IMG/VR virus record: IMGVR_UViG_3300034152_000478
Coordinates: 32,001-96,000 of that record
From: a virus
DNA length: 64,000 nucleotides
Reading direction: 5' to 3' (one strand)
Part shown: positions 1-49,291 of the stretch, piece after piece
How the letters are laid out: every line of letters starts with the position of its first letter
Numbering within the stretch: position 1 is the stretch's first letter
Notes under the pieces: generated by a model
What the model was told of the DNA's origin: nothing
The model's input: only the letters and a program-made list of their open reading frames with translations
Databases searched by the model: none
Program-made: the position numbers and the translations under genes

Positions 1-1758
1 CATATACTGGTTGACGAATATGGGCGTCTAATAGTTACTCCTGACTTATCACAGAGTGGCTATGTTTACGCTTATGGTGATACTGGGTATCCTTTAGCAG
101 TTGATGGTGCTGGTCGATTGCTTATTAACCCATCTGGCTTCGAGGCTGCTCTGTCTGGAAACTATTACGCTAAAGACGAGCATCTTGTGCCAGAGTCTGC
201 TGACACATATAATCTTGGAGAGGCAGGCACGCGATTCAATACTCTGTTTGCTCAGTCTGGCAACTTTGCAGCGGGCATGTCAGTGGGCGGACAAGTCTTT
301 GAACATCCCACCCCACACCCAATAGAAGCTGACGCAGCATTATTCAGAAACCTACGCATTCCTGATTACCAGTCTATGGCAAGCAAGACGAGCGCTGAAT
401 ACAACGTAGCTCTTGGCTGGATGGCTCTACAAAAGATCACCAATCCACTGGAAAATGTTGGTGTTGGCTATAAAGCCTTGCAAGAAGTCACAGTCGGCAA
501 CTACAATATCGGCGTTGGCTCAAATGCTGGCAACACTATCGTCAGTGGCGACTATAATACCTGCATAGGTTGGAATGCCGATGTAGATTACCATGACCGT
601 CAAAAAGCTACCGCAATTGGCCATTATGCCACAGCTTCAGGTGATAACCAAATCCGTCTCGGTGATGAATTTTCTGAGGTTCATTGCGAGAATCTTATGG
701 TCCAGCAAAACCTGGTTGTCGCTTCAGGCCGCTTTAGAAATGTTATTCAAGTCGGTCATGGAGCAATGCGCATCTATGACAACGGCAGCATCGGTATCGG
801 TTATGACATTTTTAAGGAAGCAGATAACAACCAGAATGTCGCTATAGGCAATAATGCAATGATCAGAGCTTCTGGTCAATATTCTATAGCCATGGGTGTG
901 TCGGCTTCGCAGAATTTGCCTGCTGGTTCTAACAACAATGTAGCTTTAGGCACTTTTGCGTTACGCAACGATAATCACCATACAATTAGTGAGTCCGTAG
1001 GTATCGGTCCAAGCACATTTCGTCAGATACAAAGCAATGTCTCTTGGGGTATCGCTATTGGAGAAAGTGCTGCTCTTTTTGCAGGAGGCAATAGAAATAT
1101 CGCTATTGGACAAAAGTCTGGCGGCGGTGCTTCTGCTGGCACTACTGGTGATAATTGTATATGTATTGGTACCAATGCAGGTGGCCAAAGCTTGGCAAAT
1201 GAAACTATAGCGATTGGTCGTGAGGCACTGTATTTCCCACCTGATCAATTTAGCGTAAGGAATATAGCGATAGGCTACTACGCGCTACGACAACTCAAAC
1301 ATATGTCTACAAACTGTATAGGCATAGGCTCACAAGTAGGGCGTCTTGCAGGTGGATCTGGAATAATTTTGATTGGCGATAGTGCTGGATTTTGGCAATT
1401 TGGCAATTACAATACTATTATAGGCAATAATGCTTTGCCTACACTTGTACTGACTGGATCAAACAATACTCTTATAGGTGCCGACACAGACTTAAACGAT
1501 GTTTCAATAGAGTATTCAACCGCAATTGGTGCTGGTGCCGTAGCAAGTGGCTCTAATCAGGTTCGTCTTGGCGGCCAAACGGAAGAAGTTCACTGTGAAA
1601 GACTTCAAGTAGAGCGCGACTTCAGGCTTGGTGTTTATACCAGTGGAACTCGACCTTCTGCTGGCGTACCTGGCCGGTTGATATTCAACACAGATGACGG
1701 CAAGATCAACGTCGATGATGGTACCAATTGGACTTGGGCAGACGGCACAGTGATATAA
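1..1758 (+). CDS. Tail fibre/adhesin with YadA-head-like (xAIG/xGIG) repeats; 5'-truncated by the window edge
   Basis: Frame 1 is open from base 1 (HILVDEYGRLIVTPDLSQSGYVYAYGDTGYPLAVDGAGRLLINPSG) and matches the N-terminus of the next gene, so the true start is upstream of the window rather than at 118. Many ~14-aa NVAIG/NIAIG/TAIG repeats; a head-neck unit occurs twice (ATAIG..ASGDNQIRLG..EVHCE and STAIG..ASGSNQVRLG..EVHCE). Confidence 0.75.
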   Translation, partial: HILVDEYGRLIVTPDLSQSGYVYAYGDTGYPLAVDGAGRLLINPSGFEAALSGNYYAKDEHLVPESADTYNLGEAGTRFNTLFAQSGNFAAGMSVGGQVFEHPTPHPIEADAALFRNLRIPDYQSMASKTSAEYNVALGWMALQKITNPLENVGVGYKALQEVTVGNYNIGVGSNAGNTIVSGDYNTCIGWNADVDYHDRQKATAIGHYATASGDNQIRLGDEFSEVHCENLMVQQNLVVASGRFRNVIQVGHGAMRIYDNGSIGIGYDIFKEADNNQNVAIGNNAMIRASGQYSIAMGVSASQNLPAGSNNNVALGTFALRNDNHHTISESVGIGPSTFRQIQSNVSWGIAIGESAALFAGGNRNIAIGQKSGGGASAGTTGDNCICIGTNAGGQSLANETIAIGREALYFPPDQFSVRNIAIGYYALRQLKHMSTNCIGIGSQVGRLAGGSGIILIGDSAGFWQFGNYNTIIGNNALPTLVLTGSNNTLIGADTDLNDVSIEYSTAIGAGAVASGSNQVRLGGQTEEVHCERLQVERDFRLGVYTSGTRPSAGVPGRLIFNTDDGKINVDDGTNWTWADGTVI

Positions 1759-1770
1759 GGGATGTGAATA

Positions 1771-3753
1771 ATGGCATACCATATTTTTGATTATGGCCCA
1801 ACCGGCAGACACATCTTAGTAGATGATGATGGAAGACTCATTGTCAACGGAGATGCTTCGGAAAGTGGGCATATTTATGCATATGGAGACACAGGCTTTC
1901 CGCTGCTTGTAGATGGTGCTGGAAGATTGTTGATCAATCCTTCTGGTCTTGTTGGTTCCGGTGGTGGTGGAGCTGGCGCTGATGCACGATTGGATGCTGT
2001 ACCATGGACCAGTGGCGGCAGACTGGTAGATGGAGATTACGCCAATCGTTGGGTGTGGTTCAAAGGCAGTATGTTTGCTCCTCGACACAACTGGCTTGGG
2101 GCTACTGATGACGGTCTGCTAAAAATCACGCCAAGTGGCAACACATTCGCAACTAAGAAGATTGCTGCTCCCTCTGGCGGTTATCCATGGGTCGTAAAGG
2201 TTGTTGGCGAGAGATTATTTGTTGGCCATGGTGAAGGCAGCGATGGTTATATTTCATACTCTGATGATGGAGAAACTTTGAATTACGCCATTGACATGCC
2301 TGGGACTGCACAAGTTACTGCTCTTGGTGAATATGATGGCCAGTTGATTATTGGTCACAACAAAAATACTGGCACGGAACATCCTATCTATAAACTAAAT
2401 ATTGCAGAAGGTGATCCGCCAACATTTAGCATAGAAGAAGCATTTGACATATATGCTTATGCTGGCAATTGGGGATGGGATTATGGATTAGATGTTTGCG
2501 CCAATAGGGTTTTCACCTTTACGAACATCGGTTCTATTCTCAATGTGTATGACGGCCTACACAATCTTGGAGAATTTTGGCCTGATCCATATGATGCCAC
2601 TGAAACCCGACCAACCGCCCTTGCGATAGAATACAACGGTGAAATCTTCCTGCTTGGTACTAATATCTACAAGTATCAGGAAATGCCAACCGATACTGTC
2701 AACAATCCGCTGGTGCTTGCCAAAGAGACATACGAAGATACCAATGGAACTGTCAATGCATGCGCCGCAGTTTACAACAACAAACTGTGGATCATAGATA
2801 CCGCGCATAATGTATATACATACGACGGACACAATTGGACAGTAGACACCTCAATGAGTGGTGTGGCCAATGGCACGCGTGGCGGCCTTATTCAGGTAGA
2901 TGACAAGCTATATTACTTTACAAGTGACAAAGTCTGGTGGTCTATGCGTGATGCTCTATATGAGCCCAACAACAACGCAGGAGCCAACTCGAAATTCAGG
3001 ACTGCAGGGGTTCGTCACGTCAAAGGCTTGATGGATTATTGTGGCGCGAGATTTCCAACTCAAACAGAAGTTAGGAATGACGTTGGGTCTGGAGTTTTGT
3101 CGCCAGAATACACCTCAGTTCGTTTTATCACGCAATCAACACCTCTCGCCTCTGGCTTAAGTGAGCTTGATGGTCAAGTGTATGGCGAAAAATATGATCT
3201 AATCCCAGACACAACTGACACATACAATATTGGCAGTCAGATTTATGCTTTCAAAGGTCTGCACGCAGCTTCTGGTTTCTTCACGCAAGGTATACGTGTA
3301 GAGGCTTCTGGCGATCAGGCTGCTATCGAGATTCATTCAGATACTGGCACACGAGCCATTGAGATCATCAATGATGGCGACGCGATCTTGCTGGACTTGC
3401 AACAGGCTTCTGGCGCTGCTAACCCAGTTATTAAGATAGAGAATCCGGGCAGTGGTTACGACATTCAGGCTGATAACTGGAATGTAGATTACGACGGCAA
3501 TGCTGATTTTAACAACATTCCCAAGGTGTACCGGACGACTGTTGGTGAAGGCGATTGGAACTTGCCTTCTGGCGGCTACTACTGGGCAGATATAATTCAT
3601 AATCTCGGTCAGCAGTATGTAATAGCTCAGTTCTACGACTTAGACACCAACCAAAGTTCTGGTGTGTCAATTGCGCATGAGCATCGTGACGGTTCCACGC
3701 TTCGTGTCTTCACGACAACTTCAGGAGATATCGGCGCTGTGATTATGGGGTAA
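1771..3753 (+). CDS. Virion fibre/appendage protein with a central beta-propeller-like region
   Basis: 660-aa ORF. Shares an N-terminal module with the upstream gene, carries a 'LIPDTTDTYNIGS' fibre module, and has a C-terminal 'IIHNLG...AQFYD' motif typical of phage fibre tips. Confidence 0.6.
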   Translation: MAYHIFDYGPTGRHILVDDDGRLIVNGDASESGHIYAYGDTGFPLLVDGAGRLLINPSGLVGSGGGGAGADARLDAVPWTSGGRLVDGDYANRWVWFKGSMFAPRHNWLGATDDGLLKITPSGNTFATKKIAAPSGGYPWVVKVVGERLFVGHGEGSDGYISYSDDGETLNYAIDMPGTAQVTALGEYDGQLIIGHNKNTGTEHPIYKLNIAEGDPPTFSIEEAFDIYAYAGNWGWDYGLDVCANRVFTFTNIGSILNVYDGLHNLGEFWPDPYDATETRPTALAIEYNGEIFLLGTNIYKYQEMPTDTVNNPLVLAKETYEDTNGTVNACAAVYNNKLWIIDTAHNVYTYDGHNWTVDTSMSGVANGTRGGLIQVDDKLYYFTSDKVWWSMRDALYEPNNNAGANSKFRTAGVRHVKGLMDYCGARFPTQTEVRNDVGSGVLSPEYTSVRFITQSTPLASGLSELDGQVYGEKYDLIPDTTDTYNIGSQIYAFKGLHAASGFFTQGIRVEASGDQAAIEIHSDTGTRAIEIINDGDAILLDLQQASGAANPVIKIENPGSGYDIQADNWNVDYDGNADFNNIPKVYRTTVGEGDWNLPSGGYYWADIIHNLGQQYVIAQFYDLDTNQSSGVSIAHEHRDGSTLRVFTTTSGDIGAVIMG

Positions 3754-5326: not shown

Positions 5327-7225
5327 ATGCCGTACATTTGGAATGATTTCGAGATAGACTACACTAACCGGAGGCTTACACACAAAGCTTCGGGTACAGC
5401 GGTCTATACCGGGAATCAGCTTTACTCATGGTTGCAGGACACCTTTGATGAGCTGGTTCAGATGGACGATGCTGTACCAATGTCTGCTCAGACGCCCACT
5501 GAATACACGTTGATTAATGGCTGGTATATGGACGATGAAAGCTTTAAGTTCATCGATAATGCTGCTATTTCAACTATTGGCTGGAATGCTGGTACGTATG
5601 ATGATGGCGTTCGTATTTTTGAGCTGACAAGCACAGATTACGTCAATGCTACTTCTGGTGACATTGGCAGAGTAGTACTCGGTGGAACAACTGGAGAATC
5701 CGGCGTCCTACTTGCCTATGACAACTCACTAAGAAAGTGGTGGCTACGAGCCAATCCGAGCGGCACCTTCCAGACTCTCGAAGACATCAACGTAGTTGGT
5801 GGCGATGGTTCTGGAACTATGAAGTATGTATCTAAGACTGGTGAAAACCTATGGTCTAACATCTACACCTTGGGTACGTTGGAAGCTGGAACCAATATCT
5901 ACGTGACCCAAAGTGGTGTAAAGCTGGGCTCTTGGTGGCCAGCAGGCCATATTGATGTTCTTGTCAAAGTAAAAGAAGCCGACAAGTTCATTGATTATGG
6001 TAACTTGACCATTTTCGCTCGCCAATACACGAAGACCTACGACCACTTCCCAATCAGCGTAAGAAATGGTGGCCGTAACGCTGTCCCGTTGGCTACTGCA
6101 GCCGACCTAAACAACACCACAGCATCTGGTACTGTCGCAGGATACAACGATATCATCATCGCCCAGGTAAATGGTGAATTGGATTATACCGGCGCAGGCG
6201 GCTGGTTGCGCTGGGAAACAATTACTGGTGCTACATCCAATGCGACAGCTATCGTTTTGGAAGATGAAACGACCGGCAATGTTCTGACACTTGGCAACGT
6301 AAGTGGCGTGTGGCAGAATGGTGAGGTTATCAACGGTGGTACTGGTACAGGCAGCACTGCGAGTACACTGGATGTTGCTGTCACTTATCTCCATATGGAC
6401 TTGAATAACGGTAATGGCGACCGACCATACGATACCCACTGCAAGCTGCAGACACGTCCGTTGACTGAATGGTATGAGTGGATTAAGTTTATCACCAGAC
6501 GAGCTTCTGCGGAACGCTTTTACCAGAATGATGGTTCAGGTCTGTACTGGACAGATGGTGAGCAGTATATTGCTGCTCAGGCAGACTATACTCCGGTCAA
6601 GGCCAGTCCTCTGGGCGGATTTGCCGGTGGCACCTACTTCGGAGCGCAGGGAGTTTGGATCGAGGATTACGATTCAGATGACGCCAAGAATTTCCAGCTC
6701 ATCGATAGCTCCGGTGTTACGCAGACACCACCGAATGTTGTGGTTGTCAAGGTCACCAGTGTTGTGGCAGGTGACAGAGTCGCTGTTTTCGTCCTAACTG
6801 GTGACGGTGGCGAAATTGACAAGAATCAGTATCTTGCTGCTGCTGGCAATAACAATGGTGATCCAGACTTTGTGGTTCAGGGCACAATCACATCTGATAC
6901 GCCACAAGCCGGTTACCTGCGTATTGCGAACAGCTATGGTAGTGATGACTTGTATGAATATTCTTCTTGGACTGGTTCAACCTTCACATTGGATTCAATG
7001 ACGCTAAGTAGAAACTACAGTGCGGGTGAATCCGTCTATATTCCGATTATTGACGTTCAGGCGACTGGAACTGAGGTCTCTAACACGCTGATTTACAGCA
7101 CTGACATTTCTGTGTTGGTGCGTGTGCGTAGATATGGCATTTTGCCGTTCGAAGTTGAGTCCGACATCACAAGTGTTGGTTTGACTGTTGCGGCTATTAG
7201 AACGACAGATACGATTGTATCGTAA
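5327..7225 (+). CDS. Putative abundant virion structural protein
   Basis: 632 aa, acidic and G/T/S-rich, with a strong AGGAGG RBS and an upstream promoter-like motif. Confidence 0.6.
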   Translation: MPYIWNDFEIDYTNRRLTHKASGTAVYTGNQLYSWLQDTFDELVQMDDAVPMSAQTPTEYTLINGWYMDDESFKFIDNAAISTIGWNAGTYDDGVRIFELTSTDYVNATSGDIGRVVLGGTTGESGVLLAYDNSLRKWWLRANPSGTFQTLEDINVVGGDGSGTMKYVSKTGENLWSNIYTLGTLEAGTNIYVTQSGVKLGSWWPAGHIDVLVKVKEADKFIDYGNLTIFARQYTKTYDHFPISVRNGGRNAVPLATAADLNNTTASGTVAGYNDIIIAQVNGELDYTGAGGWLRWETITGATSNATAIVLEDETTGNVLTLGNVSGVWQNGEVINGGTGTGSTASTLDVAVTYLHMDLNNGNGDRPYDTHCKLQTRPLTEWYEWIKFITRRASAERFYQNDGSGLYWTDGEQYIAAQADYTPVKASPLGGFAGGTYFGAQGVWIEDYDSDDAKNFQLIDSSGVTQTPPNVVVVKVTSVVAGDRVAVFVLTGDGGEIDKNQYLAAAGNNNGDPDFVVQGTITSDTPQAGYLRIANSYGSDDLYEYSSWTGSTFTLDSMTLSRNYSAGESVYIPIIDVQATGTEVSNTLIYSTDISVLVRVRRYGILPFEVESDITSVGLTVAAIRTTDTIVS

Positions 7226-7232
7226 CGCAGAT

Positions 7233-7300
7233 AAGTGAAGTTAACGACCACTCAGGCGAGGTTTCAGGAGAGACTTCTCCTGGGTGGTCTAACTCCGCTT
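7233..7300 (+). other. Long imperfect intergenic RNA hairpin (possible processing/stability element)
   Basis: AAGTGAAGTTA-AC-GACCACTCAGG-CG-AGGTTTC [AGGA loop] GAGACTT-CT-CCTGGGTGGTC-TAACTCCGCTT; several G-U pairs and no U-tract. Confidence 0.55.
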
Positions 7301-7341
7301 GAAGTGTCAGCAAGAGGAGAGGCGTGGAAGAGGATCAGTAA

Positions 7342-8112
7342 ATGGCACTGGATGTTAATTTCGACGATTATCTAATATATGTGCCATACCCAAGAACAGA
7401 GGTTGTGGCCCAGGATCTGATCGATGATATCAGATGGGCTGAAACTACAACTTCAGGTATAGCACATCCTAAAATCGCCGATGCGTCTGGTAAAGAAGGT
7501 TTGGCATCAGGTGTCGCGGTGGGCATTACTGTTGAGCTATATGATCCTTGGCAACTTAAGTTTTGGAATGGTAATTATGTAGCGACTATTCGAGATGGCA
7601 ACTTGGTCGGTGGGCTTAGCGGCATACCAGTTGCATACAGTGCTGGCGTACAGGTGCTTATGATTCAGTCCGCTGCCGCAACTATTGTGTCGCCCGAAGG
7701 TTGCAGCGCTTCGAACATTGCTCAAGAAGTTGATAATGTACTTTCTGCGAATCATGGCTCTGGTATATGGGAGGGCGATGGCCTATCCGAAAGTGGCATA
7801 GCACAAGCAGTCGATACCCAGTTGACAGCTACTAAGGGTGGGGCACCATGGACGCAGACACTTACTGAAAGCGGAATTGCCCATCGAGTTTGGCAGGAAG
7901 ATATGTCGTTGCACATGGCCTCTGGAACGGCCGGGGCTTTTGTCAATTTCATTTACAGTATAGAAGGTGGTCGCTGGAAGATCGACCAGACCACCAACCA
8001 GATGGTATTCTACAAAGAAGACAATGTAACCGAAATAGCAAGATTCGACCTGTTCGGAGCAGGCGGCTCTCCAGCGAGCGACGATGTTTATGAACGAAAA
8101 CGTGATTCATGA
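7342..8112 (+). CDS. Putative virion structural protein
   Basis: 256 aa with an internal repeat (IAQEVDNVLSANHG..W / ESGIAQAVDTQLTATKG..W / ESGIAHRVW). Confidence 0.55.
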   Translation: MALDVNFDDYLIYVPYPRTEVVAQDLIDDIRWAETTTSGIAHPKIADASGKEGLASGVAVGITVELYDPWQLKFWNGNYVATIRDGNLVGGLSGIPVAYSAGVQVLMIQSAAATIVSPEGCSASNIAQEVDNVLSANHGSGIWEGDGLSESGIAQAVDTQLTATKGGAPWTQTLTESGIAHRVWQEDMSLHMASGTAGAFVNFIYSIEGGRWKIDQTTNQMVFYKEDNVTEIARFDLFGAGGSPASDDVYERKRDS

Positions 8113-36115: not shown

Positions 36116-36117
36116 TA

Positions 36118-38917: not shown

Positions 38918-39122
38918 CTCCTGCCTCCTCCAATTCTTGTCTAATGGCAGCCAATTCGTTAGCTACTTCGCACAACTTACGCCGTAGCTTGCTACGCTGT
39001 TTGCGTTCTTCATCGTTTTTGGGTTGTGGGAAATTGTTCACTTGCAGTTGTAGCGATCGAGCATAGTTCTCCATGCGCATTTTCTTAGTACGCAGCCGTT
39101 TAAGCTGAGCTAAATCCATCAT
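38910..39122 (-). CDS. Hypothetical coiled-coil protein
   Basis: 70 aa; ATGA coupling to the upstream gene. Confidence 0.55.
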   Translation of the reverse strand: MMDLAQLKRLRTKKMRMENYARSLQLQVNNFPQPKNDEERKQRSKLRRKLCEVANELAAIRQELEEAGDV

Positions 39123-41356: not shown

Positions 41357-41531
41357 TAAGGTCTACACCCATTGCTCGTAAAACTATACGAATATCCTCC
41401 CAGGCTTTTCTCCAGTCATCTGGATTATCTGAGTATGTTACTATGTCCATATTAAGACAGGCTTCGATCAATTCATCTACGTGCTGCATTTTTTTACAGA
41501 CCCGCTTGAAGTCGTCATTTATTGGGTCCAT
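41328..41531 (-). CDS. Hypothetical protein
   Basis: 67-aa ORF filling the gap, with a GGAG RBS. Confidence 0.5.
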   Translation of the reverse strand: MDPINDDFKRVCKKMQHVDELIEACLNMDIVTYSDNPDDWRKAWEDIRIVLRAMGVDLNGDDNETDT

Positions 41532-42520
41532 ATTGCATTCTCCACATAATCAAGCAGTTTGCGCATACGTGCCTCATATGTGTGATGTTTTCGTAGTGAT
41601 CTTACTTTCTGTGTCACATGCCACAGTGCTCCTGCATTATGGTTGAAATGGTTTAGTAATGCATCAAAGTTATAATTGTCGTAATAAATAATATTTTGTC
41701 CACCCTCAAACATTGCAAGCTGTTCAGGAGTCTCATGCAGATCGGCTGGTCGATGGGTCATGCATGGAATACCAGCCCCCATTGCCTCGAAAATTCTCTG
41801 CTGAAATGCATAAGAACCGAGACGCTCCGGGGGTCCCAACTCTTTGTGATATAGTCCCAAGTTTAAGACAAGATGGTGCTTCTGATATATCTCGTTCACC
41901 AGCTTCGCACCGAAAATTGTATGTACACTCAGTTGATCGCCGAGAATCTTCTTGGCCCTATCAATCATGTGAATGCGATTACACCATTTACCTCCAACCG
42001 ACCCAACAAAACATGCGAGCTTTTTCTCGATTTTAGTTTCTGGGAATTTTAGAATTGGAGAGTACCATTTCGGATTGAACGCCTGCGGTAGAAAGATACA
42101 CTTCTTAGCTCCGTTGTCAAGGTATAAGGGGATTTCACCCTCGTCAAATGTAGCCCACAGATCGAAATGCTCAGCTTGAGATTTGAATCGCTGCATGTAG
42201 CTGCCAAGCCTGATCGGCTCACTATTCCAACACACCGTGAAGCTTCGCTTGAGTCCCTCGCCTACCAGGCGATGATCGAACGCTTTCGGCGGTAAACCTG
42301 GACCTACTACCAGCACGATCTTATGCCGCACCACAGAGAGTATATCACCCACATCTTTCCAGGTGAAGTTATTCTTTTGAGGATGGCGATTACTCATTCG
42401 AATGTAGGGAGGATCGAGAATGTCTACCTGATGCCCCAGAGTCTCTAAGGCATCCACTATGCCGCATTCAGCAGCATGGCCAGCATTATTGAAGTATTTG
42501 CCTATTACGCATATGTTCAT
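41519..42520 (-). CDS. GT-B glycosyltransferase (CgeB/Glyco_trans_1_2-like)
   Basis: FLPQAFNP, ACFVGS, QRIFEAMGAG, HHTYEARMRKLL. Confidence 0.8.
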   Translation of the reverse strand: MNICVIGKYFNNAGHAAECGIVDALETLGHQVDILDPPYIRMSNRHPQKNNFTWKDVGDILSVVRHKIVLVVGPGLPPKAFDHRLVGEGLKRSFTVCWNSEPIRLGSYMQRFKSQAEHFDLWATFDEGEIPLYLDNGAKKCIFLPQAFNPKWYSPILKFPETKIEKKLACFVGSVGGKWCNRIHMIDRAKKILGDQLSVHTIFGAKLVNEIYQKHHLVLNLGLYHKELGPPERLGSYAFQQRIFEAMGAGIPCMTHRPADLHETPEQLAMFEGGQNIIYYDNYNFDALLNHFNHNAGALWHVTQKVRSLRKHHTYEARMRKLLDYVENAIWTQ

Positions 42521-42736: not shown

Positions 42737-42993
42737 TAATCTGGTGGCATTTCATCAAGGGGCTCAAGAGGCATTTGACGGGGTGGCAATTCGTACTCCA
42801 TCGGTGTGTAAGAATGGAATACTTCTACAGAAACGATAATAGCTGCTATCGCCTGCCTTGATCTAATATAGCCACCGCATTTTCTTACAAGCCTGTCGGC
42901 TTCGCGCACTCTTGCAAGCACTGCCTGCTTGAATGCTTCATCATGGTTTTCGTCCTTTAACATTGCATGGGCAATCGCTTCAGCTTCGCTCAT
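42736..42993 (-). CDS. Hypothetical protein
   Basis: 85 aa, overlaps the GT stop; GGAG RBS. Confidence 0.5.
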   Translation of the reverse strand: MSEAEAIAHAMLKDENHDEAFKQAVLARVREADRLVRKCGGYIRSRQAIAAIIVSVEVFHSYTPMEYELPPRQMPLEPLDEMPPD

Positions 42994-44722
42994 TGTTAGT
43001 CTTCTCCATTAAGGCTTCAAACTTAGAAATCACCATTTCTACTGGCACATTAAGACAGCCGCGCTGTGAACAGTTCTTCCATTCGCCATGTTGGCAACGC
43101 ATACGCTTATCGCACGGCAACATTGCTATTGCGAGGTTTTTGTTAAGCGGCATATTCTTGATAGGATTTGTAAATGTCCAGACAGCAACGGTCGGTATTG
43201 CGAAACAGGCTCCAATGTGAAGTAATCCCCCGTCATTACCAATGAGACCTTTCCCTCCTGCAATAACTGCGGCAGATTCTTTAATACTGAGTCTTCCGCA
43301 GAGGTTAACGATTTTTCCTTCGCACAATGAATGTCCGGCAGCATGAAGAATTTCTTCGGCTTCTTCTTTGTCATCTTGATCTCCAAGCAAAGCGATGTTA
43401 TAGTTGGGCAATAGATGTTGAATCAATTGGGCATAGTTATTATTGCCCCAATGCTTCAAACTCCAATGTTCTTCGTGCAAATATCCTGCTGCTATACAAA
43501 TGTAATCGCGCTCTGGCACCAGGCCAAGCTCAACGCCAGCTATTTCTCGGTTCTCCTGCGTGATAAAACACTCAACAGAAGGAAACCTCTTGGGCGGATC
43601 ACAATTCATGGCATATGCCAAATCCATGTTGTAGTGAGCTTCGTGCTTGGCCCATACTCCTCCCTTTTCGGATGGCCTAATAATCTCTTTGGACAACTGC
43701 ATTGCCGCCGAATAGTAAATCGATGCAGTCGGAGAGAGTAGTAGATAATCAAATCCTCCTATTGAATGCACAAAATGATTGTGGTGTCTTGTTATCAGAT
43801 CATCTATAACTGGCCAACCTTGCAAAATGTCGCTGCCGCGTGGCCATGTTAATACTGAGATTCTCGCATCCGGATAATGATAGCGCAGAGTCTTTAACAT
43901 CGGAGTTGTCAGAATCAAATTGCCCATACCGGAATTGATAATGAAACCAATTTTCAGGCGTTCCTTGTGTTCAAAAGCTTCCGCAGGAGCCTTGGCCTGT
44001 AAAAGTGGATGATCCTTGACTATTTCTGGAATATGGCTTGTGGTGTGGAATTTGACACCGGGACGCTTCATATGCTCGCCATGTAGCTCCCACTTGAATT
44101 CCCCATGAGTCTCAGTTCTGTCGCGTATTTTGGTTAACATGCGGCTGGGGTTGCGCACATAGGAGTAGTGATAGAATTGGGCTATTGATCCTCGTGCGTG
44201 TTTAAGTACCTCGCCAGTCGGCTTGACCAAGTGGTTGGGGTCGGTGAATCTATATCCCTTGTCGACCAGAAATAAACGAGGGAAATCAATCGTGACATAA
44301 TGGAAGGCGTCATTGACAAACGTAAGCGATGTAGCGTCAAAGAATTCTGCATCCGTTCTCTGCGTAGCTGCAACAATCTTCTCCACCTCTTCAGGTTCAT
44401 AGATTTCATCAGAATCCACAATCCACATAAAGCACTTGCCAGGCACAAAATCAAAGAAGCGACTTCGTTGTTGAAGTTGGGTTGGCTCGTTGAGTAAATG
44501 AAGTTCGAGACGATCTGTTCCAAATTCATTTTGTAATCTCTGCAGAATTTCTATTGTGCCATCGGTAGAGCGAAGTTTGCCACAAGTTTTTGCGCATGTT
44601 CCCCACGATCCTTCGAAAACAATTATCTTGTCAACATAATTTATAACGCTACGAATTGATGGCTCTATAAAGGCAGACTCCTCAAAAGCAACCATGTGAA
44701 CAATCAAGGGAAATTTAGACAT
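42980..44722 (-). CDS. Bifunctional glycosyltransferase: GT2-like (GT-A) + GT9-like (heptosyltransferase-type GT-B)
   Basis: N-terminal STDGT...WIVDSDE (DxD); C-terminal [38 protein letters not shown] and a Cys cluster. Confidence 0.85.
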
Positions 44723-45183
44723 GCAAATTCTCCAAAGTGATGTTTGGCTGCTTTATCATATGCTAATGCCGCTTCTTTTGCTGAATCAAAATATCCGAGA
44801 AATAGATGTTGTTTTGGTAAACTAATGAATGCTTCCCATTTGTTGTGTGATTGTTTCCAGCTCACTCCTTTAAACTTGGAGCTTTTTGATTTTGTGGTTT
44901 TTCTTTTTCTCCGTATATTATTTTGTGGTGTTATGATTCTTATATTGTGTCTTCTGTTGTCAAGACCATTGCAATTAACATGATCTACATGCCGACTATC
45001 TCCAGGCATTAATCCCAAAAGAAATCTGTGCATATAGATATATGGCCCATTTTTACCTTGGCGTCTTGCCGCATAAAAATGGTTTTTTGTTGCTATAGTG
45101 TGCCAACTGTGTTCAATCAATACACTATAGTCTTCATCATCTACGAGTGCAAATTTATTCTTGGTTAAGGGGATTTTCTTCAC
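44704..45183 (-). mobile_element. HNH-AP2 homing endonuclease gene
   Basis: YMHRF...[17 protein letters not shown] (HNH) plus SKFKGVSW...[18 protein letters not shown] (AP2); more AT-rich than its neighbours. Confidence 0.85.
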
Positions 45184-45236: not shown

Positions 45237-45656
45237 TTAATTTTGCTTAATGTCTATGATTTCTATTTGATGATGATCACATGTCTGAACATATTCCGGA
45301 ATATAGTAGCCTTTATAATCAAGCTTACCATTTTCATCTGCAACCCACCAACCTGGACACGGCCCAGAAGCTGCTACTGGATCTTTAGTCATATCGTAGG
45401 TACCAAGCCAGGTAGTGCATATTTTGCAGCGATGTACATAGCATGCTATTTTTGACTCTGCTCTACGATCTCTGAAAATTCGCCGCAAGTCTGCCAGTTC
45501 TTCTGTTAGATTATGCAATATAGTATCAGGACATTCTTCAAGCTTATTGTTTTCTACGTAATATTTTGCTATCTCACATAACCATTGCATTTCTCTTTTG
45601 ACTGCTGCAATTTTGCCCACGAAATGCTGGAAACTATCTTCATTTATATACTGCAT
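45237..45656 (-). CDS. Hypothetical protein (Cys/His-rich C-terminus)
   Basis: 139 aa; overlaps the GT stop; AAGGAG RBS. Confidence 0.55.
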   Translation of the reverse strand: MQYINEDSFQHFVGKIAAVKREMQWLCEIAKYYVENNKLEECPDTILHNLTEELADLRRIFRDRRAESKIACYVHRCKICTTWLGTYDMTKDPVAASGPCPGWWVADENGKLDYKGYYIPEYVQTCDHHQIEIIDIKQN

Positions 45657-48600
45657 TTGAATGCTCCTTTCAGCGGGTGTTGCATATCCACCTGGAGAAT
45701 CAACTCCTTATCTTCTTTGATTCTTTCTTCGATATCTTCAGTCGTATTATGAGTCCAACTGTTGCGGCCATGATAAGTGCTGCTCCAGAATCCACCGCGC
45801 TTTTTCTTGGTCTCCAAATCGGCCCAGCTATAATGCACAATATGTGGCATAGCCTCTGAAATCTGTTGCATCATAGTTTTGTAGTTTTCCAGAAATTCAG
45901 CCGGAACCTCCTGGCCTTCACGGAATAGCTTTACCACCTCAATGTGTAGCTTAGCAGCTTGTGGCGGCAGAATAGAAACATGTGGCGCAATTGCCAATGT
46001 GTCCCTATCGATATACTCGCAGCCATCGCTCTTGCGCTTGTCGAACACCACTTGCATGGTTTCCGGATCGAAATCACGTGCTTCGCCATATACGCCATGG
46101 ATAATTTTTGGATCGTTTTTGCTCAATCTCCACTTCCAGATAGAATCATCCACTCTGATGGTGTTGTCGCCACCATACATGTTGATTACTGGGAAGTCGA
46201 AAATCGGCACCTTGCGATTAGCTCGTATCAGGTCGCGTATCTGTCCCGGATGTGGTTCAACCAGCATTTCATCAGCATCAAGCTGTATCAGATACTCACC
46301 CGTGCACTGCTGACGTGCCCATGTCTTCTCGTTGCCCATGAGCATTGGATCGTCCATGTCCCACTCATGCTGCAATACCTTGAGTTTTGGCTCATTCTTT
46401 GCAAGAAACTGCAGGTCTTCGAAGGTGCCGTCAGTAGATCCACCATCGACTATCACAAATTCGTCTGCAACTTTCAGTGCCTCCTTAATACATGCTATAT
46501 ATGGAAAGCGATTTTCATTGCCATTCTTGATGATGCAATATGCTGATATGTTAATAGGCTTGGGTGGCTTAATGTGTTCATTACCAAGCTCTTCGCGCAT
46601 TGCATCAACAATAGTGTCGGGAACAATATTGTCGATACACTTTGGCTTGCCCTGCTTCTTCTGGATACATTCGACAAGATGGCAGCTTGTGTAGCAGCCA
46701 CTGCGATTCTCTGGCTCAATAGCCTTGCTATTCTGTATGCCCCCCTGGCGAGCATAGGTACCACCATATACGACAATGGATCGAGTATTCACTGCAGAGG
46801 CAACATGCGCAGGAAATGAATCAAGTCCTACGTGTAATGCCGCATTCTCAATAAGATAGGCAAGCTGCTGTGGTGTGGTCTCTCCGCGCATGTCCACCAC
46901 ATCGGGATGCTCTAATAGCGGTTCATCTTTGCTCCCTATTTGTACTATCTTAACACCATGGACACGAGAAAACACCTCTTCCCAGTTGCTATAGTCTTTA
47001 GGATCTTGAGTAGTCTTGGCATGGAAGGTAATGTATTTGCCTTCAAAGGGTAGTTCGACTGGCTCTTTCCCGATTCTTATCTTCTTACGCACCTCGTCAT
47101 CGGTTAGGGACAGCCCACACAAGTGTCCGTATGTTACAGCTAAAGAGTCGCCTTTGCCACCATGAATCCAGTGAGGTATTCTCTGTGTCACAATGAATGG
47201 ACAGAAGCACAAATCCACAAACCCACGAGCCGGACCGAATGGCTCTGCTGATCTGTAGTTCAATAGATTGTCATCGTATTCAAACACCTTGGAGATGACA
47301 GGATTATCTTTCAGAATGGGAAAATAGCGCTTTTCTGTGGCGAAATAGATAGTTGCCTCTGGATACTTTTCTTTCAGTGCCTTAATGACTGCTGTAGACA
47401 ATAGCACATCGCCAGCAGTTTGAGGCATGCAATACATGATCCTAAACTTGTCATCTGGATTCATTTCTTCTGCTATTTGCTCAAGCGGATTCTTAGATAT
47501 TACAACCTCTCCAGGCTTCTTGTCTTTTGATCCCTTGATCATTTCAATAGCGTGATTTTTAGCTTCAGTAATATTGCGGAAGTACTTTTCGATTTCTTCT
47601 CTTGGTTGTCCACGCTCTATGTTGCCAAGCCAGTTGGTCATGCCTTCTTCATCAGGCTCACGACCCAGTAGTTGTTTGTAGCATTCTACAATGAACTCCC
47701 TGTCGTTCAATCCTTCTTTTTCAGCCAGGCTTTCCTCTGGCATACTTAGTGGCTCTTCATCGGTGTCCCAGGTTTCATTGCGGTCTTTGATCTCTATGCT
47801 GTCGAGAATCCACTCCCACTTCTTAGCAGTCAAATCCCAGTTGTAATGTGTCTCGATGCATTCGCGGGCGGCACGACCGAGCTTTTCTATCATGCCTTTT
47901 TTCCTGAATAGCTTAGTGAGCTTTTCGACAAAAACTTCTCTGTCAAACCAATGCCTCCATTGCATTGTCTCACTCTCAGTTTCCAGGTCGCCTCTTACTG
48001 GGATGCCGCCGCCATTACGTGCCTTCTCATAAAGCGCCGCATAATCACTCATGATAACTGGCACGCCACAAGCTTTTGCGTTTTGCACTGGCATTCCATC
48101 ACCTTCGGCGATGCTCATTTGGATATATACATCCATCAGTCCGAAGATATTAGCAAAGTGCTCGTCTGGTAGTCCCACTTGTGTATTCGGAGTATCAAAC
48201 GTGGAATTTTTGCAGTTCGGACATTGGGCGGGTGAGCCTATAAAAGTACTAACACCAAACGTGCCACACTTAGTACACAGATAGGTGAAGTAAACCTCAC
48301 CCTCAAGTCCTTCTCTTCTGATGGCTTCTGGGATATCAAACCCAACATCCCTGACTCCGGTGTGTAGCAACAGCTTGATGTTATCAATATCTTTAATGCG
48401 CTTCTTTTGAGGGTCAGGATGCATCCAGCCATTGGCGTCTTTGAACATCCTAAAGGACTCAATGATTCTTGGAAACAGCTTTCGCTTCTGGTTGCGCATA
48501 ACTGTGCCGACAAAGCGAACTCGTGGGTCGATGTTGAATCTCGCCTTAATCTGGTTCTTGTCCATCGGCTTGAATGTTTCAATGTCAATGCCAGGCTGAC

Positions 48601-49291
48601 ATACAGCCTTAACATCTAAGGGAGGTAGCTTAATGCGCCCTGCCAGTTCACAACGGGATTGCTCCTCCAAGACGCGCTTGCCAAAATTACTGTAGGCGAT
48701 CAACGTGTCTGTCTGACTATAGGTGTTCAGCCACTTCCACTGCTGTGGATACGAGTCCACACAAGCCATGATAATCCAGTGAAATTTGTCACGCAGAATA
48801 CTGTCCTGCTGCCAAAACACCATCCACCAATCGCGGATATCGATAACTACATCGGGGCGAAAATCAAGCAGTACAGCCTCAAAGCGCCACTTGCCAAACT
48901 GATTGTACTGGTAGCGGGCCTGTTGTTCTGGAGTGCCTCGCGGATTGCCATACGCGTTTTGACCATGTTGATCATTAGGATCTGGGAGATTGCCATAATA
49001 TCTCCATGGCAGTTGTTGTCCGCGTGGATCGCTCTGTGCTGCATATGAGCCAAACTCTGCCAGCTCATATTTCCCTGTTTGAGCCAGCCTTGTCAGAACG
49101 TGGCGACAATAAGTAGAGAAGCCAGTTTGCAGGAAGCTGGCTTCTGAAACAAACAGCATACGCAGCTTTTCTTTGCGTTTCGGCAGCTTGTCTATTTCGT
49201 TCTGGAGTTTTTCGATAGTCCAAGGTTCTTGAAAGTCAGCTCCGCTTATCTTGGGGAGCTTACCAGGCTTATTGGTTTCTTCGTTCTTCAC
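45644..49291 (-). CDS. Multidomain glycosyltransferase: GT4-like + DUF4214-like + GT9-like + GT2-like
   Basis: TGFSTY...EGDGMPVQNAKACGVPVI (GT4, with a CTKC...CPNC insertion); YKQLLGREPDEEG..NW (DUF4214-like); AGDVLLSTAVIKALKEKYP...GLDSFPAHVA (GT9); VDGGSTDGT...QLDADE (GT2). Confidence 0.85.
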   Translation of the reverse strand: MKNEETNKPGKLPKISGADFQEPWTIEKLQNEIDKLPKRKEKLRMLFVSEASFLQTGFSTYCRHVLTRLAQTGKYELAEFGSYAAQSDPRGQQLPWRYYGNLPDPNDQHGQNAYGNPRGTPEQQARYQYNQFGKWRFEAVLLDFRPDVVIDIRDWWMVFWQQDSILRDKFHWIIMACVDSYPQQWKWLNTYSQTDTLIAYSNFGKRVLEEQSRCELAGRIKLPPLDVKAVCQPGIDIETFKPMDKNQIKARFNIDPRVRFVGTVMRNQKRKLFPRIIESFRMFKDANGWMHPDPQKKRIKDIDNIKLLLHTGVRDVGFDIPEAIRREGLEGEVYFTYLCTKCGTFGVSTFIGSPAQCPNCKNSTFDTPNTQVGLPDEHFANIFGLMDVYIQMSIAEGDGMPVQNAKACGVPVIMSDYAALYEKARNGGGIPVRGDLETESETMQWRHWFDREVFVEKLTKLFRKKGMIEKLGRAARECIETHYNWDLTAKKWEWILDSIEIKDRNETWDTDEEPLSMPEESLAEKEGLNDREFIVECYKQLLGREPDEEGMTNWLGNIERGQPREEIEKYFRNITEAKNHAIEMIKGSKDKKPGEVVISKNPLEQIAEEMNPDDKFRIMYCMPQTAGDVLLSTAVIKALKEKYPEATIYFATEKRYFPILKDNPVISKVFEYDDNLLNYRSAEPFGPARGFVDLCFCPFIVTQRIPHWIHGGKGDSLAVTYGHLCGLSLTDDEVRKKIRIGKEPVELPFEGKYITFHAKTTQDPKDYSNWEEVFSRVHGVKIVQIGSKDEPLLEHPDVVDMRGETTPQQLAYLIENAALHVGLDSFPAHVASAVNTRSIVVYGGTYARQGGIQNSKAIEPENRSGCYTSCHLVECIQKKQGKPKCIDNIVPDTIVDAMREELGNEHIKPPKPINISAYCIIKNGNENRFPYIACIKEALKVADEFVIVDGGSTDGTFEDLQFLAKNEPKLKVLQHEWDMDDPMLMGNEKTWARQQCTGEYLIQLDADEMLVEPHPGQIRDLIRANRKVPIFDFPVINMYGGDNTIRVDDSIWKWRLSKNDPKIIHGVYGEARDFDPETMQVVFDKRKSDGCEYIDRDTLAIAPHVSILPPQAAKLHIEVVKLFREGQEVPAEFLENYKTMMQQISEAMPHIVHYSWADLETKKKRGGFWSSTYHGRNSWTHNTTEDIEERIKEDKELILQVDMQHPLKGAFKCSI

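What the first reader, a model, noticed from the sequence alone, without database searches (positions are those of the whole stretch)
1..49291. Candidate phage-encoded 'proteoglycan-like' virion glycosylation system: Ser-Gly sequons on virion proteins + UDP-xylose synthase + six glycosyltransferase domains
SEEN: most + strand structural proteins are studded with x-Ser-Gly (x mostly A/P/T/G/S/V). Across the convergence point the phage encodes a UDP-glucuronate decarboxylase-like enzyme (39119-40072) and three GT genes (41519-42520, 42980-44722, 45644-49291) carrying CgeB-like, GT2, GT9, GT4, GT9 and GT2 domains. KNOWN: animal proteoglycan chains begin with xylose, transferred from UDP-xylose (made by UXS1) onto the Ser of Ser-Gly dipeptides. 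Bacterial Aah/TibC heptosyltransferases O-glycosylate serines of beta-helical adhesins. Some mycobacteriophages glycosylate their virions with their own GTs. INFERENCE: this phage has a proteome-wide Ser-Gly acceptor code on exposed virion surfaces. One GT would prime the Ser and the others would extend a xylose- and/or heptose-containing glycan, giving a dense shield against proteases or decoy receptors, or aiding adhesion. I know of no described phage system with such a sequon. No GT14/XYLT homologue is evident, so any likeness to proteoglycans would be convergent.
Basis: partly seen in the sequence, partly recalled or inferred. Interest (0 to 1): 0.93.

Follow-up and report, generated by a model that had tools for sequence, protein, structure and literature searches.

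The report
Conserved Ser-Gly tag on phage virion
The outer head-decoration and tail proteins of this uncultured 151-kb phage and of all its relatives carry two to three times too many Ser-Gly pairs whose serines hardly ever mutate; the likeliest but chemically unproven reason is that they are attachment sites for a sugar coat made by the phage's own enzymes.

Summary
Observation confirmed and extended. In the window's + strand virion genes Ser-Gly occurs 176 times against 77 expected (shuffle z 12.5). It is the only outlying dipeptide, uses all six Ser codons, and is absent from the rest of the 150,882-bp genome. Fifteen virion proteins carry the excess; terminase, portal, capsid protein, connectors and tape measure do not. 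The Ser of Ser-Gly is as conserved as Trp (68% against 35% for other Ser). The motif is [IV]-x-[PA]-S-G-[VITL]-[LI]-F, and Thr-Gly is depleted. The same trait recurs in every relative examined; four unrelated phages give 0.9-1.6.

The UXS-like enzyme and the GT domains are as described. However, relatives with the same Ser-Gly trait lack UXS (9 of 10 tested) and GT9 (5 of 5 tested). The sugar genes found throughout the clade are a phage-specific GT4-like enzyme (the first 500 residues of the 1215-aa GT) and a GDP-mannose 4,6-dehydratase. Both carry inteins in some members.

Best reading (about 0.5): Ser-Gly is an O-glycosylation tag primed by the GT4-like enzyme, with xylose, heptose, methyl and sulfate as lineage-specific additions. 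No lineage separates the two traits, so the link stays inferential. The scan has reported similar tags in at least 31 other genomes.

The parts
1..1758 (+). Ser-Gly-rich virion protein directly after the capsid gene (598 aa; ORF starts 38 nt before the window); probable head decoration or fibre
   Evidence: 12 SG vs 5.6 expected. PHROG hits to tail spike / virion structural protein in 3 repeated stretches.
1771..3753 (+). Ser-Gly-rich virion protein, 660 aa; shares its first 57 residues with the preceding gene
   Evidence: 16 SG vs 4.4, p 1.6e-5. N-terminal 80% identity to the previous ORF. No Pfam or PHROG family.
5327..8112 (+). Two Ser-Gly-rich virion proteins (5327-7225, 632 aa; 7342-8112, 256 aa)
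   Evidence: 10 vs 4.7 and 8 vs 2.1.
11481..12701 (+). Major tail tube protein, T5 pb6 / P74-26 type, with an N-terminal insertion domain; moderately Ser-Gly-rich
   Evidence: 7 SG vs 2.6. AF2 pLDDT 92. Foldseek matches T5, DT57C and P74-26 tail tubes, E 5e-9 to 5e-7. Four SG lie in the lineage-specific insertion, two in loops and one in a core strand.
14892..21554 (+). Tape measure protein, not Ser-Gly-enriched (internal control)
   Evidence: 4 SG vs 7.2. Homologue in L035 carries PhageMin_Tail.
21554..32762 (+). Block of eight Ser-Gly-rich distal-tail, baseplate or fibre proteins (21554-22867, 22878-23438, 23447-25720, 25720-27573, 27573-28262, 28273-28959, 29404-30330, 30330-32762)
   Evidence: Together 87 SG vs about 29 expected. 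72% of SG positions are shared with the G001 orthologues. In the 228-aa family, SG columns are invariant or nearly so in 16 homologues. Weak PKD hits in the last two.
32777..38010 (+). Two large tail proteins that are not Ser-Gly-enriched in this phage (1112 aa and 630 aa)
   Evidence: 7 vs 6.3 and 1 vs 2.3. The 1112-aa homologue is enriched in G007 and G008.
38036..38674 (+). Last tail gene, 212 aa, Ser-Gly-rich; a core gene of the clade
   Evidence: 8 SG vs 2.1. Homologues in all relatives, most of them enriched (6-11 SG).
39119..40102 (-). UDP-glucuronate decarboxylase (UXS)-like SDR; specific to this lineage
   Evidence: Pfam Epimerase / GDP_Man_Dehyd. Best PDB hit human UXS1, E 9e-72, against 4e-30 for the next family. 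Orthologues in G001 and G002 only; absent at 1e-20 from 9 of 10 relatives tested.
40069..41356 (-). Phosphoribosyltransferase-domain protein (40069-40530) and Dam-type DNA methylase (40523-41356)
   Evidence: Pfam Pribosyltran 5e-14 and MethyltransfD12 2e-29.
41519..42520 (-). CgeB-like GT-B glycosyltransferase
   Evidence: Pfam Glyco_trans_1_2, 2e-11. Orthologue in G001.
42980..44722 (-). Two-domain glycosyltransferase, GT2 + GT9
   Evidence: Pfam. NCBIfam heptosyltransferase II at 92 bits, below its cut-off. PDB RfaF 1psw, 7.5e-13.
44704..45183 (-). HNH/AP2 homing-endonuclease-like gene between the GT genes
   Evidence: Pfam AP2 and HNH_3, both below the curated cut-offs.
45644..47731 (-). 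C-terminal two thirds of the 1215-aa GT: DUF4214, GT9 and GT2 domains; specific to this lineage
   Evidence: Pfam. GT9 absent from 5 complete relatives, with a working positive control.
47732..49204 (-). GT4-like domain with a CxxC...CxxC insert (residues 30-520 of the 1215-aa GT): the glycosyltransferase found throughout the clade and the candidate priming enzyme
   Evidence: 34-58% identical across the clade, more than portal or TerL. Present in 10 of 10 near-complete tube-bearing records. 67 IMG/VR loci. Atlas look-alike clusters are 88-100% viral. Intein at the EX7E motif in G004.

Best explanation
The motif [IV]-x-[PA]-S-G-[VITL]-[LI]-F on the outer virion proteins is a recognition tag for cytoplasmic O-glycosylation of the Ser by phage-encoded soluble glycosyltransferases.

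The most likely priming enzyme is the phage-specific GT4-like domain found throughout the clade (residues 30-520 of the 1215-aa protein). It would probably use a GDP-activated 6-deoxyhexose derived from the product of the phage's GDP-mannose 4,6-dehydratase, which is also found throughout the clade.

In this lineage the fused and neighbouring domains (GT9, GT2, CgeB-like GT) would extend and decorate the glycan. So would the UXS, heptose-7-P-kinase-like, sugar O-methyltransferase and APS-kinase genes. The result would be a coat on head decorations, tail tube, baseplate and fibres.

Shown: the excess, its gene specificity, the selection on the Ser, the motif, and the enzyme identities and their distribution. 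Inferred: that the Ser is modified at all, which enzyme does it, the donor sugar, and the purpose of the coat.
For: 1. SG is the single outlying dipeptide, and only in a subset of virion genes (z 11-12.5).
2. The Ser of SG is 68% conserved between orthologues at about 49% identity. Other Ser in the same proteins are 35% conserved, and Trp 68%. In TerL, portal, MCP and RNR controls, SG Ser behaves like any other Ser (45% vs 46%). 72% of SG dipeptides are positionally conserved against 29.5% for all dipeptides.
3. Across 1267 sites in 10 genomes the motif extends from -3 to +4. K, R and D are excluded at -1 to -3, and P, G and R directly after the Gly. TG is depleted (0.65).
4. The sites lie in proteins without detectable sequence similarity to one another (tube, distal tail, PKD-bearing fibres, head decorations). 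106 of 139 lie outside paralogous segments. This pattern suggests a trans-acting reader rather than one fold's requirement.
5. T5 pb6, a structural homologue of the tube, has 3 SG vs 2.6 expected. Four unrelated phages give 0.9-1.6.
6. Every relative read in full shows the trait, and 80 tube-centred loci give a median O/E of about 1.75. The GT4-like gene is in 10 of 10 near-complete records. Gmd is in 20 of 21, and the 21st has it by blastp.
7. Both genes are among the most conserved in the clade and carry inteins in some members.
8. The GTs show no clear transmembrane segment.
9. No ThyA-family hydroxymethylase was found in 5 genomes, with a working control, so the best-known route to glycosylated DNA is missing.
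10. Precedents: TibC puts heptose on Ser, not Thr, of TibA, including the Ser of NSGGAVI (PMC4358343). Mycobacteriophages glycosylate capsid and tail tube with their own GTs (Freeman 2023, as cited in PMC12363180 and PMC12619734).
Against: 1. There is no chemical evidence.
2. The SG trait, the GT4-like gene and Gmd are all found throughout the clade, so their co-occurrence is a single evolutionary event. No lineage lacking one of them was found.
3. The flanks are hydrophobic, which suggests strand edges that may be partly buried.
4. The most conserved SG of the tube family (S208-G209) lies inside a core beta-strand of a confident model, so some sites are probably structural. SG O/E is the same (1.73) in core and insertion columns of the tube family.
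5. Lambda virion proteins already reach 1.58.
6. The major capsid protein, which is a target in mycobacteriophages, is not enriched here.
7. The GT4-like gene sits next to the DNA polymerase, and Gmd next to DNA methylase, RNase H and RNR. That is a replication and nucleotide-metabolism neighbourhood.
8. The G017 and G047 lineages keep GT4-like and Gmd but have a much weaker SG trait.
Confidence: 0.5

Rival explanations
1. Ser-Gly is a structural device of this clade's beta-rich virion proteins, with no modification. It could be a tight turn, an ST-turn or a strand cap placed before a hydrophobic strand. The sugar genes would serve another purpose.
For: Hydrophobic residues follow the Gly (V/I/L, L/I, F) and precede the Ser at -3, as expected at strand edges. 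In the tube model, SG lies in a hairpin turn (S67), in loops just before strands (S37, S101) and once inside a core strand (S208, near-invariant). SG O/E is equal in core and insertion columns. Lambda reaches 1.58 without any such system. Asn is the commonest replacement of the Ser between orthologues, and Thr at tube hot columns, as for Asx/ST turns.
Against: A purely structural need does not explain why proteins without detectable similarity to one another all acquired it in one clade. T5 pb6, which shares the tube fold, has no excess. TG is depleted rather than tolerated overall. NG and DG, the classical turn dipeptides, are neither enriched nor replaced (0.87, 0.99). SG also occurs at residues 3-5 of several proteins, before any fold context.
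Confidence: 0.25
2. The glycosyltransferases and sugar-nucleotide enzymes act on a non-virion target (phage DNA, host envelope glycans or a secreted polysaccharide). The SG pattern would then be unrelated to them.
For: GT4-like lies beside the DnaE-type polymerase, and Gmd beside DNA methylase, RNase H and RNR, in replication-type neighbourhoods. The GT4-like domain has a Zn-ribbon-like CxxC...CxxC insert. Phage GTs that hypermodify DNA are well documented (Pyle 2024, as cited in PMC12619734). The GT9 domains are closest to LPS heptosyltransferases.
Against: No ThyA-family dCMP/dUMP hydroxymethylase in 5 genomes, with a positive control. ThyX and dCMP deaminase are core genes, which suggests ordinary dTMP supply. 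No clear membrane segment of the kind seen in Gtr-type serotype converters. This reading leaves the SG trait entirely unexplained.
Confidence: 0.15
3. One reading: a proteoglycan-like system in which xylose from UDP-xylose, or heptose, is the priming sugar on Ser-Gly.
For: UXS-like enzyme with clear UXS1 affinity. A Ugd-like gene, an RfaE-domain-I-like kinase, two GT9 domains and an APS kinase are present in this genome. TibC precedent for Ser heptosylation at an SG site.
Against: UXS is missing from 9 of 10 relatives tested and GT9 from 5 of 5, and the relatives then read in full carry the SG trait. The Ugd-like ORF is 316 aa and matches only the N-terminal and central domains. The motif flanks are hydrophobic. 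TibC did not appear among the PDB hits of either GT9 domain.
Confidence: 0.07

Closest known systems
Virion glycosylation of mycobacteriophages Che8, Corndog and Myrna by phage-encoded glycosyltransferases (Freeman et al. 2023; known here only through PMC12363180 and PMC12619734)
   Same: Phage-encoded GTs would modify the phage's own structural proteins, including the tail tube, in the cytoplasm of the infected cell.
   Different: There the glycans sit at the C-termini of capsid and tail-tube subunits and were shown by mass spectrometry. Here the candidate sites are about 140 short internal Ser-Gly motifs on some 13-15 proteins, the capsid protein is not enriched, the hosts are unknown, and nothing has been shown chemically. 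The Che8 or Corndog GTs were not compared here, so homology is untested.
Bacterial autotransporter heptosyltransferases (TibC, AAH) acting on TibA and AIDA-I (PMC4358343)
   Same: Soluble cytoplasmic enzymes hyperglycosylate many Ser, not Thr, in beta-rich proteins. One mapped TibA site is the Ser of NSGGAVI, an SG followed by hydrophobic residues. This phage has two GT9-type domains and a heptose-7-phosphate-kinase-like gene.
   Different: The phage GT9 domains are closest to LPS heptosyltransferases (RfaF 7.5e-13), and TibC did not appear among the PDB hits. GT9 is absent from 5 of 5 complete relatives, which carry the SG trait.
Animal proteoglycan linkage (UXS1 makes UDP-Xyl; XYLT1/2 xylosylate Ser of Ser-Gly)
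   Same: Ser-specific Ser-Gly dipeptide. A UXS1-like enzyme (E 9e-72). PAPS synthesis capacity (APS kinase).
   Different: No GT14/XYLT homologue was identified among the GT genes scanned. To my knowledge animal sites have acidic flanks, whereas charged residues are excluded here. UXS is specific to this lineage. Any likeness would be convergent and partial.
GDP-D-rhamnose / 6-deoxyhexose pathways using Gmd with GT4 transferases (for example the Pseudomonas aeruginosa common polysaccharide antigen; recalled, not tested)
   Same: The clade's core sugar genes are a Gmd whose best solved relative is P. aeruginosa GMD (1rpn, 6e-101) and a GT4-type transferase.
   Different: No Rmd/Fcl-type reductase was identified in this genome. 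The acceptor proposed here is protein, not lipid-linked glycan.
Chlorovirus PBCV-1 capsid glycosylation with virus-encoded GMD and glycosyltransferases (recalled, not tested here)
   Same: A virus-encoded Gmd together with viral GTs that build glycans on virion proteins independently of host machinery.
   Different: A eukaryotic algal virus with N-linked glycans on the major capsid protein. No relation was tested.

Membership tests
UDP-glucuronate decarboxylase (UXS; extended SDR) | Sequence closer to characterised UXS enzymes than to other nucleotide-sugar SDRs, over the full length | tested here: met
   Human UXS1 2b69/4gll/4m55 at E 9e-72 to 1e-70 over residues 8-326. The next family (GalE 4zrm) is at 4e-30. 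NCBIfam gave no equivalog above its cut-off.
UDP-glucuronate decarboxylase (UXS; extended SDR) | Decarboxylase activity on UDP-GlcA, and a source of UDP-GlcA | not testable with these tools
   The phage Ugd-like ORF is only 316 aa and matches the N-terminal and central domains but not a C-terminal UDP-binding domain. Supply may depend on the host.
BAHT family (TibC/AAH protein heptosyltransferases) | Specific sequence similarity to TibC/AAH rather than to LPS heptosyltransferases | tested here: not met
   PDB searches of both GT9 regions return only LPS heptosyltransferases (1psw at 7.5e-13 and 0.18) and no TibC entry. Best NCBIfam models are LPS heptosyltransferases II, I and III, all below cut-off.
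BAHT family (TibC/AAH protein heptosyltransferases) | Ser-specific modification of beta-rich substrates at SG-type sites | tested here: inconclusive
   The candidate sites are Ser-specific (TG depleted to 0.65) and SG-centred, as at TibA Ser313. No modification has been shown.
GT4-type (GT-B) glycosyltransferase | Glycos_transf_1 C-terminal domain with the EX7E-type donor-binding motif | tested here: met
   Pfam Glycos_transf_1 at 26.2 bits, just under the 26.4 cut-off, on the 1215-aa protein. The G004 homologue has ...EGWGMPLTEAQACGVP.... In this phage the second Glu is Asn. All listed Atlas look-alike clusters carry Glycos_transf_1, in 40-99% of their members.
GDP-mannose 4,6-dehydratase | Full-length match to the GMD family and to solved GMDs | tested here: met
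   Pfam GDP_Man_Dehyd at 378 bits over 332 of 332 profile positions. Eleven solved GMDs at E 6e-101 to 7e-79; the next match, a heptose 4,6-dehydratase, is at 6e-35.
Animal-type proteoglycan linkage system | GT14 xylosyltransferase; acidic residues flanking Ser-Gly; UDP-Xyl as priming donor | tested here: not met
   No GT14-type family among the Pfam hits of the GT genes. D, K and R are depleted at -1 to -3 and the flanks are hydrophobic. UXS is absent from 9 of 10 relatives tested.
Phage virion glycosylation (mycobacteriophage type) | Phage-encoded GTs present | tested here: met
   At least seven GT domains in four genes of this genome, plus sugar-nucleotide enzymes.
Phage virion glycosylation (mycobacteriophage type) | Glycan demonstrated on virion proteins | not testable with these tools
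   Uncultured phage; needs mass spectrometry or glycan staining.
T5 pb6 / P74-26-type tail tube protein (for 11481-12701) | Fold match to solved duplicated-domain tail tube proteins | tested here: met
   AF2 pLDDT 92.3, pTM 0.89. Foldseek probability 1.00 to the T5 tail tube 9iny (E 3e-7), T5 tail-tip chains 7qg9 (E 2e-8), P74-26 8ed0 (E 5e-7) and DT57C 8hrg (E 1.5e-6); T5 pb6 crystal 5ngj at E 2e-3.

The most novel reading that the evidence does not exclude
A very large uncultured clade of 140-180-kb siphoviruses runs a sequon-directed, cytoplasmic O-glycosylation system for its own virion. The clade comprises hundreds of IMG/VR contigs, and its tube family has 910 representatives at 50% identity. 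A phage-only GT4 enzyme would read [PA]-S-G-hydrophobic on folded outer proteins and attach a Gmd-derived 6-deoxyhexose. Individual lineages would then elaborate the glycan. In this lineage the additions would be xylose, heptose, O-methyl and sulfate groups, giving a convergent, proteoglycan-like coat. This would be the first short linear O-glycosylation sequon described for phage proteins.
Probability: 0.3. Interest if true: 0.9.

Novelty: new variant of a known kind. Interest (0 to 1): 0.72.

Why it matters
Phage virion glycosylation is known experimentally from only a few mycobacteriophages, and there it is confined to C-terminal tails. A short, conserved, Ser-specific tag on some 15 virion proteins would be different in kind. 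If it is real, it is read by a phage-only glycosyltransferase that is as conserved as the capsid protein across hundreds of environmental genomes. That would make sugar coats a core, ancient part of virion architecture in a major aquatic phage group.

It would also give a sequence rule for predicting glycosites in metagenomic phages. It would supply a new soluble protein O-glycosyltransferase with a minimal tag, of interest for glycoengineering. And it could explain the many unexplained GT and sugar-nucleotide 'auxiliary' genes in large phages.

If the tag is instead purely structural, it is still an unusually strong, clade-specific sequence rule for virion protein folding.

Tried and rejected
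1. DNA-word explanation (restriction or methylation site, codon pair): rejected. All six Ser codons are used, and the excess is specific to certain genes rather than to a strand.
2. Domain duplication: rejected as the main cause. Only 33 of 139 SG sites lie in paralogous segments.
3. SG replacing deamidation-prone NG or DG: rejected. NG is 0.87 and DG 0.99.
4. Special N-terminal enrichment: not special. 13 of 77 rich proteins have SG in the first 9 residues, roughly as expected from their overall SG density.
5. AF2 of the 228-aa protein with 16 sequences: pLDDT 47, unusable.
6. Search for cultured relatives: none. The best phage-database hits are 22-27% identical for GT4-like (S-CBS4, S-EIVl, TJE1, Mae-JY09) and 24% for TerL (Bacillus phages).
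7. Distant GT4 carriers S-CBS4 and TJE1 as independent replicates: no SG excess (1.32, 0.91). At 22% identity this says little.
8. Search for a relative lacking the GT: failed.
   - GT4-like is in 10 of 10 near-complete tube-bearing records. The tube is in 13 of 13 near-complete GT4-bearing records. Gmd is in 20 of 21, and the 21st has it by blastp.
   - The tube subclade with few SG (P0056, P0144) led to G017, which still has GT4-like and one SG-rich giant protein.
9. Tet_JBP search: empty, but without a positive control, so uninformative.
10. Solvent exposure of SG serines: the tools return only secondary structure, so exposure could not be computed. Insertion and core columns of the tube family show equal O/E.
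11. Freeman et al. 2023 (PMC10527164) is not held.
12. Record L035, from an ENA assembly, could not be extended.
13. No complex prediction was run, because enzyme-substrate pairs are poor cases for that tool.

Full report
**Source and layout.** The window is bases 32001-96000 of a 150,882-bp IMG/VR virus record that CheckV rates complete. The + strand up to 38674 holds virion genes. From 39119 onward everything runs on the - strand (sugar genes, then SSB, a DnaE-type polymerase, DnaB, primase, RecA and so on). TerL, portal, a protease/scaffold-like gene and the major capsid protein lie just upstream of the window.

**The observation.**
- In the + strand ORFs, Ser-Gly occurs 176 times against 76.6 expected from within-protein shuffles (sd 8.0; the maximum of 2000 shuffles was 104; z 12.5).
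- SG is the only dipeptide that stands out (z 11.4; the next is 3.5). The reverse dipeptide GS is normal (89 vs 77). The - strand ORFs show nothing (20 vs 24.7).
- All six Ser codons take part, so the signal is selected at the protein level.
- Over the whole genome the excess begins abruptly at the first gene after the capsid gene and ends at the last tail gene.
- Within that block it is selective. About 15 proteins carry it. The tape measure, chaperones, connectors, three other proteins, and the upstream TerL, portal and MCP do not.
- Only 33 of the 139 sites in the 13 significant proteins lie in paralogous segments.
- Unrelated phages give 1.58 (lambda), 1.21 (T5), 1.32 (S-CBS4) and 0.91 (TJE1). 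A mild SG excess is therefore generic to virion proteins, but 2.3 overall and about 3.1 in the significant proteins is not.

**Selection on the sites.**
- A relative at 40-70% protein identity (G001) shows the same excess in the same orthologues. 68 of 94 SG positions are shared (72%), against 29.5% for dipeptides in general and 26% for GS.
- In three-way alignments the Ser of SG is 68% conserved, equal to Trp. Other Ser in the same proteins are 35% conserved.
- In TerL, portal, MCP and RNR, the few SG serines behave like any other Ser (45% vs 46%).
- In a 228-aa tail protein family, SG columns are invariant or nearly so in 16 homologues, and relatives have up to 11-12 SG in about 230 residues.
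- Pooling 1267 sites from ten genomes gives the motif [IV]-x-[PA]-S-G-[VITL]-[LI]-F. K, R and D are excluded at -1 to -3, and P, G and R right after the Gly. Thr-Gly is depleted (0.65). NG and DG are unremarkable.

**The clade.**
- Portal, GT and tube searches in IMG/VR recover a very large uncultured group of siphoviruses of about 140-180 kb, several with direct terminal repeats.
- The tube family alone has 910 representatives at 50% identity.
- Every relative read in full repeats the pattern: G001, G002, G004, G007, G008, G010, G011, G012, G014, G017, G018 (partial), G019 and G047. Large head-decoration and tail proteins are enriched, for example 66 vs 22.9, 51 vs 19.9 and 49 vs 18.8. TerL, portal, MCP, the tape measure and the replication genes are at expectation.
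- Eighty tube-centred loci give O/E of 0.65-2.24, with a median of about 1.75, even though connectors are included.
- The trait is weaker in the G017 and G047 lineages, where mainly the giant protein after the tape measure is enriched.
- No cultured member exists in the phage collection.

**The enzymes in the window.**
- 39119-40102 is an SDR with clear affinity to human UXS1 (E 9e-72, against 4e-30 for the next family).
- 41519-42520 is a CgeB-like GT-B.
- 42980-44722 is GT2 + GT9.
- 45644-49291 is GT4-like + DUF4214 + GT9 + GT2.
- None has a clear transmembrane segment.

**Further sugar genes elsewhere in the genome.**
- an APS kinase
- three Methyltransf_24 enzymes (one also matching the CmcI family) and an FkbM-type methyltransferase
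- a further GT2
- an RfaE-domain-I-like kinase
- a short Ugd-like ORF

**Which enzymes track the trait.**
- UXS orthologues exist only in G001 and G002. Nine of ten further relatives lack one at E<=1e-20.
- GT9 is absent from five complete relatives, while the control genomes ring.
- The six of those relatives that were read in full have the SG trait.
- A core-gene comparison shows about 23 genes shared by all six complete distant genomes. They are structural and replication genes plus exactly two sugar genes.
- The first is the GT4-like N-terminal 500 residues of the big GT. It is 34-58% identical across the clade, which is more than portal or TerL.
- The second is a GDP-mannose 4,6-dehydratase at genome 17016-17990. 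It scores 378 bits in Pfam, its best solved relative is P. aeruginosa GMD 1rpn (6e-101), and at 46-56% identity it is the most conserved gene of all.
- GT4-like is present in 10 of 10 near-complete tube-bearing records. The tube is present in 13 of 13 near-complete GT4-bearing records. Gmd is present in 20 of 21, and the 21st has it by blastp.
- Both genes carry inteins in some members. In G004 the intein is inserted exactly at the EX7E motif of the GT.
- The Atlas look-alike clusters of the GT4-like domain are 88-100% viral.

**Structure.**
- With a 134-sequence alignment, the 406-aa protein at 11481-12701 folds confidently (pLDDT 92.3). It matches the T5 pb6, DT57C and P74-26 tail tubes.
- Four of its seven SG serines lie in an N-terminal insertion domain found only in this subclade. 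Two lie in loops. One (S208) lies inside a core strand and is near-invariant in the family.
- At family hot columns the main alternative to Ser is Thr.
- T5 pb6 itself has no SG excess (3 vs 2.6).
- SG O/E is the same in core and insertion columns. Solvent exposure could not be computed with the tools available.

**Interpretation.**
- The data demand a reason why a Ser next to a Gly is kept as strictly as Trp in many virion proteins that show no detectable similarity to one another, in one clade only.
- A trans-acting reader of a short motif fits best.
- The only clade-wide enzymes that could supply one are the GT4-like protein and Gmd.
- Precedents exist. TibC heptosylates Ser, not Thr, of TibA, including the Ser of NSGGAVI (PMC4358343). 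Mycobacteriophages glycosylate capsid and tube (as cited in PMC12363180 and PMC12619734).
- The best-known DNA-glycosylation route is unlikely, because no ThyA-family hydroxymethylase is present.

**Points against the glycosylation reading.**
- The link is one evolutionary event.
- The motif flanks are hydrophobic.
- At least one site looks structural.
- The capsid protein is spared.
- The two core sugar genes sit among replication genes.

I put the glycosylation-tag reading at about 0.5. A purely structural motif gets 0.25, sugar genes aimed at another target 0.15, and the specific xylose- or heptose-primed, proteoglycan-like version 0.07.

**Prior notes.** The scan's index lists similar Ser-Gly or [ST]-G-S tags in at least 31 other genomes. 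These are unchecked AI notes. I used them only as leads, and my scores rest on the tests above. Two full-text searches found no paper describing such a sequon in phages.

Noticed in passing
L027:5341-8121 (G004); also G012, G014, G016, G018, G059/G060 homologues: The clade's GT4-like gene carries inteins. In G004 a Hint-domain intein is inserted exactly at the EX7E donor-binding motif. In G016, G059 and G060 the GT matches in three pieces, which suggests two inteins.
   Followed up: partly
L140:14098-16242 (G012): The GDP-mannose 4,6-dehydratase of a relative is 714 aa and is interrupted by a LAGLIDADG-type intein. Inteins in sugar-nucleotide enzymes are unusual.
   Followed up: partly
genome 17016-17990 (14 kb before the window; L003:5016-5990): GDP-mannose 4,6-dehydratase is the most conserved gene of the whole clade (46-56% identity). 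It sits between a DNA N6/N4 methylase, RNase H and ribonucleotide reductase. No Rmd/Fcl-type reductase was identified in this genome.
   Followed up: partly
window 44704-45183 (-): An HNH/AP2 homing-endonuclease-like gene is wedged between the GT2-GT9 gene and the 1215-aa GT gene. A 45%-identical copy sits in G004 near the tube region (33925-34380).
   Followed up: no
window 40069-40530 (-): A phosphoribosyltransferase-domain protein (weakly xanthine-PRT-like) overlaps the UXS gene start and has an orthologue in G001. Its role in a sugar cluster is unexplained.
   Followed up: no
genome 121386-121964 (-) (L005:5386-5964): A 192-aa ORF far from the virion module is also Ser-Gly-rich (6 vs 1.7) and has no Pfam family. 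G007 has two such outliers (131964-134231 and 134751-135218). They may be unrecognised virion or secreted proteins.
   Followed up: no
genome 105531-106265 (L004:9531-10265): The APS kinase has an N-terminal DUF2061 predicted-membrane segment. Next to it is a 127-aa HxGH-type nucleotidyltransferase-like ORF (weak NMN-adenylyltransferase hits). It could equally be a heptose-1-P adenylyltransferase partner for the RfaE-domain-I-like kinase at genome 97530-98534.
   Followed up: partly
genome 111919-112869 (L004:15919-16869): The Ugd-like ORF is only 316 aa and lacks a match to the C-terminal UDP-binding domain, so it may not be a working UDP-glucose dehydrogenase.
   Followed up: partly
window 1-180 and 1771-1950: The two large proteins after the capsid gene share an 80%-identical N-terminal 57 residues. 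This looks like a common anchoring module on different distal domains.
   Followed up: no
window 49942-53298 (-): The replicative polymerase is a bacterial DnaE-type Pol III alpha (PHP, NTPase, finger and HhH domains). It is split or intein-bearing in several relatives (two or three separate matches in G010-G014, G017 and G047).
   Followed up: no
G017 38792-50743; G047 162695-173644; G012 59022-65672: The gene after the tape measure grows to 1,900-3,983 aa in some lineages. It is then the main or only Ser-Gly-rich protein there.
   Followed up: partly
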